Assembly (NCBI GenBank): GCA_001822675.1
Contig: MHRY01000048.1
Location: 1 to 44,778, forward strand
Direction: 5' to 3'
Length of the DNA: 44,778 nucleotides
From: Candidatus Taylorbacteria bacterium RIFCSPLOWO2_01_FULL_45_34b
Lineage (GTDB): Bacteria > Patescibacteriota > Minisyncoccia > Phycocordibacterales > DSPV01
The notes under the pieces are model-generated. The model was given only the letters and a program-made list of their open reading frames with translations. It was not told where the DNA came from and ran no database searches. The position numbers and the translations under genes were made by a program. Shown here piece by piece: positions 1 through 827 of this stretch (positions are counted from its first letter, which is position 1; every line of letters starts with the position of its first letter).

Positions 1-84
1 GCCTTGCCTCACAGTAATTTAGTAATTTAAAAGCACCAACGCTCTGCTCCCCGGGTAGGATTCGAACCTACGACCAATCGCTTA

Positions 85-690
85 CGTTTTACCCACTGTT
101 ACCAATGGCACGGACTATATCATCTCCTTGTTCTTTGTTTAATTTAGAATGTAGGAGCGAGGCGCTTCCGCTCCGATGTAACATCGGAGAGTACTCCCTT
201 TCGGGATAGTCTCTACACCTTCCCTTAAAAATTTTCTTTAACATGTGAAGGGCTTGGCTCGGGATTGTCCTTCTGGACTCTCATCCAAGAATTTTGTTTT
301 TTTAGGATTTCCCCGAATTCACCTCGTTTTTCAATCCGCCTTTCGGCGGAAAGCTGCGTAATACCACCACTGACCTCTCTATGGCAATTAGCGCAAAGCA
401 AGACACACTTATCTAGCTCTGCTTTTATTTTTATCCAAGCGCGTGTATATCCTTTGTCTCCAATTCCGAAACTTTTCTCCGCTTTGTTGACATGGTGCAA
501 TTCTAACGCACCCGCAAAACGGTTATACCCACACACGTGACACTTACCACCTTTATATTCAATCGCGAGAAGCTTCAACTTTTTCCGCCGTTTTACAACA
601 GCTTTTAACAAAGCGTCTCGTCGGTCAGCATAGGTTCTTGTTTCCCGTTTGGCCATTCTTGTAACCACAATTATATCGAGAAACACGCTC
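85..690 (-). mobile_element. Group I self-splicing intron (IC3-like, tRNA-intron type) carrying a homing-endonuclease ORF
   Basis: The 5' exon ends in U and the intron ends in G (..AAAACG|UAAGCGAU). Minus-strand core blocks are GAAUUCGGGGAAAUCCUAA (302..320), CAAUCCCGAGCCAAGCC (251..267) and GGGAAGGUGUAGAGACUA (207..224). These resemble the P4/P5, P6 and J6/7-P7 segments I recall from the Azoarcus tRNA-Ile and Anabaena tRNA-Leu introns. They are followed by the hairpin UCCC-GAAA-GGGA and a 9-bp hairpin CUCCGAUGU/ACAUCGGAG. Confidence 0.8.
225..656 (-). CDS. HNH homing endonuclease (intron-encoded)
   Basis: The likely start is MAKRETRTY at 656; the longer ORF reaching 770 would run through tRNA exon 1. 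The HNH motif is CHVCGY..LELHHVNK...LLCANCHREV. The last ~50 codons overlap the ribozyme core and the stop codon directly abuts GGGAAGGUGUAGAG. Confidence 0.85.
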   Translation of the reverse strand: MAKRETRTYADRRDALLKAVVKRRKKLKLLAIEYKGGKCHVCGYNRFAGALELHHVNKAEKSFGIGDKGYTRAWIKIKAELDKCVLLCANCHREVSGGITQLSAERRIEKRGEFGEILKKQNSWMRVQKDNPEPSPSHVKENF

Positions 691-827
691 ACAGGCGACT
701 GCGCTACCGCTGCGCCACCGGGGAGCAGAATTTTGGTGCAAACAATATTTGATATTTCAATGAACATCATTATCCTAACAGAGCCGCTCCGACTTGCAAG
801 AGGTAGGTTTAGACGGGTATAAAAACA

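What the first reader, a model, noticed from the sequence alone, without database searches (positions are those of the whole stretch)
47..724. tRNA-Asn(GUU) split by a group I intron that carries an HNH homing endonuclease
Two half-tRNA segments on the minus strand (691..724 and 47..84) join into a canonical 72-nt tRNA-Asn with anticodon loop CUGU|UAA. The 606 nt between them start after a U and end in G, as group I splicing requires. They also contain blocks I recognise from the IC3 tRNA introns of Azoarcus and Anabaena: GAAUUCGGGGAAAUCCUAA, CAAUCCCGAGCCAAGCC and GGGAAGGUGUAGAGACUA. Bacterial tRNA group I introns that I know of sit in tRNA-Leu(UAA), fMet, Arg(CCU) and Ile(CAU) and lack ORFs. 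Here the host is tRNA-Asn, the insertion is at position 35/36, and a 143-aa HNH ORF is present. The 3' third of that ORF is read through the P2-P6 ribozyme core, with the stop codon directly before J6/7-P7. I could not place P1 or the internal guide sequence confidently. The candidate CGCAG at 353..357 would put the ORF inside the P1 loop.
Basis: partly seen in the sequence, partly recalled or inferred. Interest (0 to 1): 0.8.

Follow-up and report, generated by a model that had tools for sequence, protein, structure and literature searches.

The report
Mobile self-splicing intron in tRNA-Asn
The asparagine tRNA gene of an uncultured ultra-small (CPR/Patescibacteria) bacterium is split in its anticodon by a group I intron that carries its own DNA-cutting HNH "homing" enzyme. 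The same element sits in the same gene in hundreds of related species, and I found no published description of it.

Summary
Window 724..691 and 84..47 (minus strand) join into a clean tRNA-Asn(GUU). The 606 nt between them (690..85) score 84.4 bits against Rfam Intron_gpI (cut-off 50) and encode a 143-aa HNH endonuclease (656..225).

- P1 is CUGU paired with an invariant GCAG (357..354).
- The ORF sits in the P1 loop.
- The last ~40 codons are an incidental read-through of P2-P6; the usual length in relatives is 104 aa.

The window is a CPR (Parcubacteria-like) chromosome. At least 547 species genomes, mostly CPR, encode this HNH. In 75 of 80 loci fetched it lies in or next to a tRNA-Asn(GUU) gene split between nt 35 and 36.

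Evidence that the parts work:
- The ribozyme helices covary: 36 of 51 pairs show compensatory changes.
- The HNH core is under purifying selection (dN/dS about 0.09).
- Uninterrupted tRNA-Asn genes identical to the joined exons exist in metagenomes.

In phage contigs, relatives of the HNH are free-standing and lie beside a tRNA-Asn gene in 66 of 80 loci.

This is an ordinary mechanism in a new host gene, at a new site, with a new endonuclease family. Splicing and cleavage are inferred, not shown.

The parts
691..724 (-). tRNA-Asn(GUU) 5' exon: acceptor and D arms, 5' half of the anticodon stem, and loop nucleotides C32 U33 G34 U35. The 5' splice site follows U35 (window 691).
   Evidence: ARAGORN on joined exons and on unspliced DNA with introns allowed. 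100% identical to uninterrupted tRNA-Asn genes L089-L103.
85..690 (-). Group I intron, 606 nt. It begins with G after the splice-site U and ends with the terminal G at window 85.
   Evidence: Same position in 75 of 80 related genome loci.
670..675 (-). TATAAT hexamer, 13 nt upstream of the ORF start codon. Candidate internal -10 promoter box for the endonuclease gene.
   Evidence: 63 of 71 related introns have a -10-like hexamer between the 5' splice site and the ORF start, against about 23 in shuffles. 36 are preceded by TG. The commonest spacing to the ATG is 6 nt. The generic promoter scan did not call it, because there is no -35 box. Inferred.
225..656 (-). HNH endonuclease ORF, 143 aa, ATG at 656..654, stop at 227..225. 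The conserved core is about aa 1-100 (656..357). Residues 101-143 are a read-through of the guide sequence and P2-P6.
   Evidence: PHROG HNH families, E 4.5e-27. Pfam HNH in 33 of 36 relatives; this copy scores 19 bits against a cut-off of 21.4. Invariant C39, C42, H54, H55, C88, N90, C91, H92. dN/dS about 0.09. The usual relative length is 104 aa.
354..357 (-). Internal guide sequence GCAG, the 3' strand of P1. It pairs with exon C32 U33 G34 U35, with G357 opposite U35 as the wobble pair at the splice site. It lies inside codons 100-101 of the ORF.
   Evidence: GCAGC is invariant in 74 of the 76 related introns listed, and is followed directly by P2. ORF-less L037, L067 and L084 read CUGU|7-8 nt|GCAGC.
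335..350 (-). P2 hairpin: UCCGCC, GAAA loop, GGCGGA.
   Evidence: 5 of 6 pairs show compensatory changes; 99% of cells paired.
158..326 (-). P3 (326..322 with 162..158), which encloses P4-P6, the 5' strand of P7, P7.1 and P7.2.
   Evidence: 3 of 5 P3 pairs show compensatory changes. Coordinates.
259..316 (-). P4 (316..311 with 264..259) and P5 (307..305 with 270..268) with a variable P5 extension. Includes the GAAUUCGGGGAAAUCC and CAAUCCCGAG blocks.
   Evidence: P4: 4 of 6 pairs compensatory. P5: 2 of 3. Coordinates.
217..258 (-). P6 (258..256 with 219..217) and P6a (252..246 with 228..222). The ORF stop codon 227..225 lies in the 3' strand of P6a.
   Evidence: All 7 P6a pairs compensatory. 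Coordinates.
207..213 (-). 5' strand of P7, GAGACUA with a bulged A. It forms a pseudoknot with 117..112.
   Evidence: Essentially invariant in all 54 aligned introns; 99.4% of cells paired. Conservation only, no covariation.
169..206 (-). P7.1 (206..195: UCCC, GAAA loop, GGGA) and P7.2 (191..169). These two hairpins are inserted between P7 and the 3' strand of P3.
   Evidence: P7.1: 4 of 4 pairs compensatory. P7.2: 7 of 7. Rfam treats the segment as an insertion relative to its model.
124..157 (-). P8 hairpin (157..154 with 127..124, with a variable distal part).
   Evidence: 4 of 4 pairs compensatory.
112..117 (-). 3' strand of P7 (UAGUCC), preceded by the conserved J8/7 segment AUGAUA.
   Evidence: Invariant.
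85..108 (-). P9 hairpin (108..93: CCAUUG, GUAA loop, CAGUGG), then GUAAAACG ending in the terminal G at 85.
   Evidence: RNAfold of the last 36 nt gives a 6-bp hairpin with a GUAA loop, -7.8 kcal/mol. The last base is G in all aligned introns. I did not quantify P9 across the family, because MAFFT shifts its register.
47..84 (-). tRNA-Asn 3' exon: U36 A37 A38, the 3' half of the anticodon stem, variable loop, T arm, acceptor 3' strand and discriminator G. No CCA is encoded.

Best explanation
This is a mobile group I intron inserted between anticodon nucleotides U35 and U36 of the tRNA-Asn(GUU) gene of a CPR (Parcubacteria-like) bacterium.

**Splicing.** The gene is transcribed as a pre-tRNA of about 680 nt. 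The 3' half of the intron (357..85) folds into a group I ribozyme with P2-P9 plus extra hairpins P7.1 and P7.2. Its guide sequence GCAG pairs with the exon's CUGU to form a 4-bp P1, with a U-G wobble at the splice site. The tRNA's own anticodon stem probably holds the two exons together, because no conserved P10 is seen. Guanosine-initiated transesterification followed by attack at the terminal G (window 85) would then remove the intron and produce mature tRNA-Asn.

**Mobility.** The P1 loop carries a gene for an HNH endonuclease of about 100 aa. It is probably expressed from its own -10 promoter, as an mRNA with a short 5' leader here and essentially leaderless in most relatives. The enzyme most likely cuts or nicks intron-less tRNA-Asn genes near the sequence that encodes the anticodon loop. 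Recombinational repair then copies the intron into the cut gene (homing). The intron itself destroys the target site, so carriers are immune.

**Shown here:** the anatomy, family-wide conservation and covariation of the ribozyme, purifying selection on the enzyme, the existence of intron-less alleles with identical exons, and the specific association of this HNH family with tRNA-Asn genes.

**Inferred:** splicing activity, the cleavage site and specificity, the promoter, and that this is the genome's only tRNA-Asn gene.
For: - **tRNA.** The joined exons are called tRNA-Asn(gtt). Fifteen metagenome contigs carry an uninterrupted tRNA-Asn 97-100% identical to the joined exons, with unrelated flanks and no HNH nearby.
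- **Ribozyme.** Rfam Intron_gpI scores 84.4 bits here and 62-89 bits in relatives.
- **Covariation.** On 54 aligned ribozymes, 96% of cells are paired, against 75% in shuffles and 32-49% when partners are slid. 36 of 51 pairs show compensatory changes. The covariation score is 0.566 against 0.163.
- **P1 and guide sequence.** GCAGC is invariant, and ORF-less relatives have it 7-8 nt after CUGU.
- **Distribution.** 547 or more species genomes encode the HNH. In 75 of 80 fetched loci the intron splits tRNA-Asn(GUU) between nt 35 and 36; the other 5 are cut by contig ends.
- **HNH family.** PHROG HNH families match at E 4.5e-27, 1.2e-21 and 1.6e-16. Pfam HNH matches 33 of 36 relatives. The Cys and His/Asn motifs are invariant. 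The core is intact in 73 loci, with a median dN/dS of 0.09 over 59 pairs.
- **Target inference.** In 66 of 80 phage contigs a free-standing relative lies within 500 nt of a tRNA-Asn(GTT) gene. In L037, L067 and L084 a free-standing HNH lies next to a tRNA-Asn gene with an ORF-less intron.
- **Host.** The window carries rpoB, rpoD, dnaG and hisS. Its RpoB is about 80% identical to Taylorbacteria, Paceibacterota and Parcubacteria proteins.
- **Literature.** Complete CPR genomes have a full tRNA set only when tRNAs with group I introns are counted (PMC8172020).
Against: - No transcript, splicing or cleavage data exist.
- P1 is only 4 bp and must form across a loop of about 330 nt.
- P10 is not supported by the sequences in front of the guide sequence.
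- The window copy of the HNH falls below Pfam's own cut-off: 19 bits against 21.4.
- The AlphaFold model was unusable, with mean pLDDT 44. Profile hits to solved HNH structures are weak: E 0.005 to 0.09.
- The window's -10 box lacks the TG extension and any -35 box, and the promoter scan did not report it.
- Whether another intact tRNA-Asn gene exists elsewhere in this genome could not be checked. Only 44.8 kb was available, and it contains none.
- Strong purifying selection on a homing endonuclease in a widely fixed intron is not what simple homing cycles predict. It may point to an additional function.
Confidence: 0.85

Rival explanations
1. The intron is a fixed, domesticated element, and the HNH protein is kept for a host-level function rather than for homing. 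It could be a splicing helper (maturase), or a nuclease that cuts incoming phage DNA carrying intron-less tRNA-Asn genes, which would make it a defence system. The intron-bearing gene would be the only tRNA-Asn, so all Asn decoding would depend on ribozyme activity.
For: - The HNH core is under very strong purifying selection (dN/dS about 0.09) and is intact in 73 loci. Simple homing cycles would be expected to leave many decayed endonuclease genes once a population is saturated.
- Many large phages carry intron-less tRNA-Asn genes, and phages also carry relatives of this HNH next to them. That pattern fits a conflict centred on this gene.
- CPR genomes need intron-bearing tRNAs for a complete tRNA set (PMC8172020).
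Against: - There is no direct evidence for maturase or defence activity.
- Intron-less alleles with identical exons are common, so naive homing targets exist and ordinary homing can explain continued selection.
- A few copies are frameshifted or truncated, for example L059, L069, L081 and L085, as homing cycles predict.
- The phage contigs are not known to infect CPR hosts.
Confidence: 0.1
2. The tRNA-Asn copy is a gene disrupted by an inserted element and is no longer functional (a pseudogene). An intact tRNA-Asn elsewhere in the genome would do the work.
For: - The rest of the genome could not be searched.
- Default tRNA finders see no tRNA here.
Against: - The exons are 100% identical to uninterrupted tRNA-Asn genes. 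They show no decay and fold into a perfect cloverleaf.
- The ribozyme core is conserved with abundant compensatory changes across 54 species.
- The same split gene is present in 75 of 80 related loci, with no second tRNA-Asn within 2.5 kb.
- CPR genomes are small and usually carry one gene per tRNA type (background knowledge).
Confidence: 0.04
3. The interruption is an assembly chimera, or the tRNA identity is mis-parsed (for example tRNA-Thr(UGU) with an insert after position 33, as ARAGORN calls about 30 relatives).
For: ARAGORN labels 31 related loci tRNA-Thr with the intron at position 33 or 34.
Against: - The identical arrangement appears on 14 contigs from independent assemblies.
- The Thr calls arise only where the intron ends in ..GTG or a similar sequence. 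Those tRNA bodies are the same as in the Asn-called loci, and all re-parse as Asn(GUU) at 35/36 with a terminal G.
- In the window the intron ends ..AACG, so no Thr parse is possible.
Confidence: 0.01

Closest known systems
[quoted passage not shown]
   Same: [quoted passage not shown]
- A very short P1 (3-4 bp) with a U-G wobble at the splice site.
- The exons are probably aligned by the anticodon stem rather than by P10.
- The J3/4-P4, P4'-P6 and J6/7-P7 blocks closely resemble the Azoarcus and Anabaena sequences as I recall them (one search used a sequence from memory, so this is a lead and not a test).
   Different: - The host is tRNA-Asn(GUU).
- The insertion is between nt 35 and 36. From memory, the Leu intron is at 34/35 and the Ile and Arg introns at 36/37.
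- All members have two extra hairpins (P7.1, P7.2) between P7 and the 3' strand of P3.
- The P1 loop holds an ORF.
- The hosts are CPR/Patescibacteria.
Synechocystis PCC 6803 tRNA-fMet intron encoding I-Ssp6803I (Bonocora & Shub 2001; listed in the references of PMC3984707)
   Same: [quoted passage not shown]
   Different: - I-Ssp6803I is a PD-(D/E)XK-type enzyme (from memory), whereas this one is HNH.
- The tRNA and the insertion site differ.
- This family is far more widespread: 547 or more species genomes.
HNH homing endonucleases of phage group I introns (I-HmuI, I-TevIII, I-PfoP3I; PMC3428280)
   Same: A small HNH nuclease encoded inside a group I intron. It matches phage HNH PHROG families strongly. 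Several characterised members are nicking enzymes.
   Different: Those introns sit in protein-coding genes of phages. This one sits in a bacterial tRNA gene, and its ORF overlaps the guide sequence and P2.
Free-standing homing endonucleases in phage tRNA gene clusters (T4 SegB, PMC2330249; T5 HNH nickases, from memory) and 'collaborative homing' (Zeng et al. 2009 and Bonocora & Shub 2009, as summarised in PMC3984707)
   Same: - Relatives of this HNH are free-standing next to tRNA-Asn genes in phage tRNA arrays.
- Three CPR loci pair a free-standing HNH with an ORF-less intron in the neighbouring tRNA-Asn gene.
- Together with the window's arrangement, this matches the intermediates proposed on the way to a composite mobile intron.
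   Different: SegB is a GIY-YIG enzyme. The published collaborative-homing cases are in phage protein-coding genes (psbA, DNA polymerase). No cleavage data exist here.
Group I introns with LAGLIDADG endonucleases in CPR rRNA genes (PMC11270868)
   Same: The same host lineage, and also self-splicing introns with homing endonucleases in structural RNA genes.
   Different: Those are in rRNA genes and carry LAGLIDADG enzymes. That paper mentions neither tRNA nor HNH.

Membership tests
Group I intron (Rfam RF00028) | Covariance-model score above the curated threshold | tested here: met
   84.4 bits against a gathering score of 50, full-length match, E 3.4e-20. Relatives score 62-89 bits.
Group I intron (Rfam RF00028) | 5' splice site after a U that forms a U-G wobble with the internal guide sequence in P1 | tested here: met
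   The exon ends CUGU. GCAG is invariant at 357..354. ORF-less relatives show CUGU|7-8 nt|GCAGC. The exon side never varies, so there is no covariation test.
Group I intron (Rfam RF00028) | Terminal G as the last intron nucleotide | tested here: met
   G at window 85. The last column is G in all 54 aligned introns.
Group I intron (Rfam RF00028) | Conserved core helices P3-P8, including the P3/P7 pseudoknot, supported by covariation | tested here: met
   36 of 51 pairs compensatory; 96% paired against 75% (shuffled) and 32-49% (slid). P7 is invariant, so it is conserved but not tested by covariation.
Group I intron (Rfam RF00028) | Guanosine-dependent self-splicing | not testable with these tools
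   Needs in vitro transcription and splicing, or RNA-seq.
Subgroup IC3 (tRNA introns) | IC3-type core sequence and architecture, with no P7.1/P7.2 | tested here: inconclusive
   The core blocks match Azoarcus as recalled from memory. All members carry P7.1 and P7.2 between P7 and P3'. No subgroup-specific model or reference alignment was available.
tRNA-Asn(GUU) | Cloverleaf, anticodon GUU, discriminator G | tested here: met
   ARAGORN on the joined exons. Identical to uninterrupted tRNA-Asn genes.
HNH endonuclease (Pfam PF01844; PHROG HNH families) | Profile match above threshold | tested here: met
   phrog_2255 at E 4.5e-27 and eight further PHROG families, six of them annotated HNH endonuclease. 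Pfam HNH matches 33 of 36 relatives, best E 1.8e-6. The window copy alone is below Pfam's cut-off, 19 bits against 21.4.
HNH endonuclease (Pfam PF01844; PHROG HNH families) | Catalytic His/Asn/His residues and two CxxC zinc ligand pairs | tested here: met
   C39, C42, H54, H55, C88, N90, C91 and H92 are invariant in 36 sequences, including the window. The same motifs align with the HNH domain of a group II maturase, 6me0_C.
HNH endonuclease (Pfam PF01844; PHROG HNH families) | The beta-beta-alpha metal-binding fold | tested here: inconclusive
   AlphaFold2 model with mean pLDDT 44, unusable.
Homing endonuclease / mobile intron | Intron present in some alleles and absent in others that have identical exon sequence | tested here: met
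   15 contigs carry an uninterrupted gene 97-100% identical to the joined exons, with no HNH nearby.
Homing endonuclease / mobile intron | Site-specific cleavage of the intron-less allele at or near the insertion site | not testable with these tools
   Indirect support only: free-standing relatives are adjacent to tRNA-Asn genes in 66 of 80 phage loci.

The most novel reading that the evidence does not exclude
This HNH lineage may be a nuclease specific for tRNA-Asn genes that moves between phage tRNA arrays (free-standing) and CPR chromosomes (inside the intron). In CPR bacteria the intron-bearing gene may be the only tRNA-Asn, so all Asn decoding would depend on a ribozyme. The unusually strong purifying selection on the nuclease could then reflect a retained host-level role. 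One candidate is cutting the intron-less tRNA-Asn genes of invading phages, that is, an intron-protected 'self' allele paired with a nuclease against 'non-self' alleles.
Probability: 0.1. Interest if true: 0.8.

Novelty: new member of a known kind. Interest (0 to 1): 0.6.

Why it matters
- **New example.** It adds a fifth host tRNA, a new insertion site (35/36) and a new endonuclease family (HNH) to the short list of bacterial tRNA group I introns. The element is common in one of the largest bacterial radiations, not a curiosity.
- **Annotation.** Standard tRNA finders miss the gene or call it tRNA-Thr. Gene callers produce a 181-aa protein that runs through the tRNA exon. CPR genomes will therefore look as if they lack tRNA-Asn.
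- **Origin of mobile introns.** The data hold all three stages proposed for the birth of a mobile intron: a free-standing nuclease beside an intact target gene (phages), a free-standing nuclease beside an ORF-less intron, and the nuclease inside the intron. That makes the 'collaborative homing' pathway testable in one family.
- **Translation in CPR.** If this is the only tRNA-Asn gene, translation in these reduced organisms depends on a self-splicing RNA.

Tried and rejected
- **Default ARAGORN** on the window finds nothing. Intron-aware settings were needed.
- **ARAGORN's tRNA-Thr(UGU) parse** for about 30 relatives was rejected after re-parsing.
- **AlphaFold2** on a 36-sequence alignment gave mean pLDDT 44, so no fold search was run.
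- **Profile search against PDB sequences** gave only weak HNH hits.
- **NCBIfam** gave no match.
- **The generic sigma-70 scan** did not report the internal -10 box. The motif rests on my own count.
- **P10:** the bases 5' of the guide sequence (AUUAC, AUAUU, AUAAC and others) do not consistently pair with the 3' exon UAA, so I do not claim a P10.
- **P9:** MAFFT shifts the register between sequences, so I report only the window's own fold.
- **Short introns.** Rfam does not detect L067, L126 or L170 even at E 0.01, and L084 scores only 44 bits. I therefore treat only L037 and L084 as supported ORF-less group I introns, L067 as likely by eye, and the two phage cases as unclassified.
- **Azoarcus comparison.** It used a sequence recalled from memory that seems truncated, so it is a lead only.
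- **Literature.** Nine full-text searches, plus reading PMC3984707, PMC11835236, PMC8172020, PMC8450103, PMC5733544 and PMC11270868, found no tRNA-Asn group I intron. Paquin 1997 and Biniszkiewicz 1994 are not held, so insertion positions of the known introns are from memory.
- **Not possible:** a whole-genome census of tRNA-Asn genes in this organism.
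Full report
**1. Checking the observation**

On the minus strand, window 724..691 reads TCCCCGGTGGCGCAGCGGTAGCGCAGTCGCCTGT. Window 84..47 reads TAAGCGATTGGTCGTAGGTTCGAATCCTACCCGGGGAG. 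ARAGORN calls the joined sequence tRNA-Asn(gtt) with a regular cloverleaf. On the unspliced DNA, with long introns allowed, it reports tRNA-Asn i(35,606). With default settings it finds no tRNA in the whole 44.8-kb window.

The 606 nt in between follow a U and end in G. Rfam's group I intron model matches 375..92 on the minus strand over its full length, at 84.4 bits (gathering score 50, E 3.4e-20). It is the only Rfam family found in the window. The ORF 656..225 is present; the ORF list extends it upstream to 770, through the tRNA exon. The protein and its arrangement recur on 14 contigs from independent assemblies, so this is not an assembly artefact.

**2. The host**

The window carries rpoB, rpoD, dnaG, hisS, typA, a UvrD/AddA-like helicase-nuclease and other chromosomal genes. 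Its RpoB is about 80% identical to proteins named Candidatus Taylorbacteria, Paceibacterota or Parcubacteria. The window is therefore part of the chromosome of a CPR/Patescibacteria bacterium.

**3. A large family, always in tRNA-Asn**

The 143-aa protein has 1,318 homologous clusters at 59-85% identity among the 120 listed. Many are labelled Patescibacteria.

It called tRNA-Thr with an intron at 33/34 in 31 others. The Thr calls are an alternative reading that is possible only when the intron ends in ..GTG or similar. Re-parsing as CTGT|intron..G|TAA gives tRNA-Asn(GUU) in 83 of 88 loci held, which is 75 of the 80 genome loci. Their tRNA bodies are identical or nearly identical to those of the Asn-called loci. 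The other five loci are cut by contig ends.

A second organism (L005-L008) has the same split gene in unrelated flanks. It shows 79% DNA identity to the window over the tRNA and intron only.

**4. Anatomy of the ribozyme**

GCAGC is invariant and is followed directly by the P2 hairpin in 74 of the 76 distinct introns listed. Three relatives have short, ORF-less introns that read CUGU|7-8 nt|GCAGC...: L037 (269 nt), L067 (190 nt) and L084 (186 nt).

This fixes several points:
- P1 is exon C32-U33-G34-U35 paired with G-C-A-G (window 357..354), with U35 opposite G357 as the wobble pair.
- The bases 5' of the guide sequence do not consistently pair with the 3' exon. I see no conserved P10, and I assume the anticodon stem aligns the exons, as reported for the Anabaena intron (title cited in PMC3984707).

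An alignment of 54 ribozyme cores (A2) folded with RNAalifold recovers P2, P3, P4, P5, P6/P6a, P8 and two further hairpins between P7 and the 3' strand of P3, which I call P7.1 and P7.2. I added the P7 pseudoknot and counted pairs:

| Measure | Observed | Shuffled | Partners slid |
|---|---|---|---|
| Cells paired | 96% | 75% | 32-49% |
| Covariation score | 0.566 | 0.163 | about 0.1 |

Compensatory changes occur in 36 of 51 pairs. P7 itself is invariant. Window coordinates of all helices are listed under parts.

Their likeness to IC3 introns rests on memory only. P7.1 and P7.2 are not features I recall in the Azoarcus or Anabaena introns. Subgroup assignment therefore stays open.

**5. The ORF**

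The window copy alone scores 19 bits on Pfam HNH, below the 21.4 cut-off. However, 33 of 36 relatives match that model. The 104-aa core of the window protein matches phage HNH families at E 4.5e-27, 1.2e-21 and 1.6e-16. C39, C42, H54, H55, C88, N90, C91 and H92 are invariant. They align with the HNH domain of a group II intron maturase. The structure prediction failed, with mean pLDDT 44.

The core is under strong purifying selection. The median dN/dS is 0.09 over 59 pairs. Between the window and L005, pS is 0.68 and pN is 0.064.

The commonest ORF length in the family is 104 aa, with the stop codon inside P2. In the window, P2 happens to contain no stop codon. The frame therefore runs on through P3, P4, P5 and P6 to 227..225. 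The apparently conserved tail motif (...EKRGEFGE...) is the translation of conserved RNA. Where the RNA covaries, as in P2, the peptide is not conserved. Codons 100-101 (ACG CAG) contain the guide sequence, so that short stretch is constrained both as protein and as RNA.

**6. Expression (inferred)**

No Shine-Dalgarno-like sequence precedes the ATG. Instead, 63 of 71 introns have a TATAAT-like hexamer between the 5' splice site and the start codon; about 23 are expected in shuffles, with a maximum of 35. In 36 of them the hexamer is preceded by TG. The commonest distance to the ATG is 6 nt. This suggests an internal promoter that makes an mRNA with little or no leader. In the window the box is TATAAT at 675..670, 13 nt from the ATG and without the TG. 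The generic scan did not call it.

**7. Evidence for mobility and target**

Fifteen metagenome contigs carry an uninterrupted tRNA-Asn gene 97-100% identical to the joined window exons. Their flanks are unrelated and they have no HNH gene nearby. The insertion is therefore exact, and naive target alleles exist.

In IMG/VR, at least 562 viral contigs encode relatives at 42-65% identity. These are free-standing genes inside phage tRNA arrays. In 66 of 80 loci a tRNA-Asn(GTT) gene lies within 500 nt, and it is by far the commonest neighbour on either side: downstream in 45 loci and upstream in 25.

In L037, L067 and L084 the HNH gene is free-standing next to a tRNA-Asn gene that holds an ORF-less intron. 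L037 scores 68.9 bits on Rfam group I. L084 scores 44 bits (E 2e-8). L067 is not detected.

Together with the window's arrangement, these are the three stages of the 'collaborative homing' route to a composite mobile intron described in PMC3984707.

**8. Mechanism**

The most likely mechanism has two parts. First, the ribozyme self-splices out of the pre-tRNA and yields mature tRNA-Asn. Second, the HNH enzyme nicks or cleaves intron-less tRNA-Asn genes near the anticodon-loop sequence, and repair copies the intron in.

- Shown: the anatomy, conservation and covariation, selection on the ORF, intron-less alleles, and the association with tRNA-Asn genes.
- Inferred: catalysis, the cleavage site, the promoter, and that this is the only tRNA-Asn gene. 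The last point fits the statement that complete CPR genomes have all tRNAs only when those with group I introns are counted (PMC8172020).

**9. Comparison with what is known, and novelty**

tRNA group I introns are known in Leu(UAA), fMet, Ile(CAU) and Arg(CCU). The tRNAscan-SE 2.0 paper lists fMet and Ile2 cases only. One of these introns encodes an endonuclease (I-Ssp6803I). CPR bacteria are known for rRNA introns with LAGLIDADG enzymes (PMC11270868), and that paper mentions neither tRNA nor HNH.

Nine full-text searches found no description of a tRNA-Asn group I intron or of an HNH enzyme in a tRNA intron. The closest is a one-line remark that some CPR tRNAs have group I introns. The library lacks most subscription journals, so prior description cannot be excluded.

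I rate this a new member of a known kind. The mechanism is ordinary. The host gene, insertion site, endonuclease family and lineage are new, and the element is very widespread.

**10. Verdict**

Confidence in the main explanation is 0.85. Interest is 0.6.

Noticed in passing
L105-L183 (IMG/VR viral contigs): Relatives of the HNH (42-65% identity) are free-standing genes inside phage tRNA arrays. In 66 of 80 loci a tRNA-Asn(GTT) gene lies within 500 nt, most often 18 nt downstream on the same strand. Some loci (L107, L117, L118, L130) have a tRNA-Asn on both sides.
   Followed up: partly
L037:2863-3132, L067:2874-3064, L084:2214-2400: tRNA-Asn genes with short ORF-less introns (269, 190 and 186 nt) at the same 35/36 site, each with a free-standing HNH gene directly upstream (L037, L067) or downstream (L084). 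L067 and L084 go from P7 straight into the 3' strand of P3, without P7.1/P7.2. L067 carries the hairpin CUCCGAUGU-ACAUCGGAG at the P6 position; almost the same sequence forms P7.2 in the window.
   Followed up: partly
window 670-675 (-), and the 5' part of the intron in L009-L088: A TGnTATAAT-like motif (extended -10) lies 6-9 nt before the HNH start codon in most family members. This suggests an internal promoter and an mRNA with little or no leader.
   Followed up: partly
window 225-770 (-); L011, L021, L025 and other loci: Annotation pitfalls. Gene callers extend the ORF to 181 aa through the tRNA 5' exon (P0001). Default ARAGORN misses the tRNA. With introns allowed it calls about 30 relatives tRNA-Thr(UGU). 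CPR genomes will therefore appear to lack tRNA-Asn.
   Followed up: yes
L113:2774-2968, L123:2164-2379, L183:2291-2828, L154:2820-2942, L126:869-1149, L170:2999-3267: In some phage loci the HNH relative sits next to other tRNA genes that ARAGORN reports with inserts of 48-446 nt: Arg(tct), Ser(gct), Ser, and Asn with 48-206 nt. Rfam finds no group I intron there at its gathering score (all six loci) or, for L126 and L170, at E 0.01. Their nature is unknown.
   Followed up: partly
L005:5758-6069: The second organism carrying the tRNA-Asn intron has a small GIY-YIG domain gene about 2.3 kb downstream of the tRNA. It may be another homing-endonuclease-like gene.
   Followed up: no
L013, L029, L047, L072, L075: A few intron-bearing loci come from MAGs labelled Simkania, Gammaproteobacteria or Eubacteriales. 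L013's tRNA is identical to that of unclassified 'bacterium' MAGs (L012, L081), so mis-binning is possible. L075 has a distinct tRNA body and could be a genuine host outside CPR.
   Followed up: no
L059, L069, L081, L085: A minority of introns carry frameshifted or interrupted HNH ORFs while keeping the ribozyme, as expected if endonuclease genes occasionally decay.
   Followed up: no
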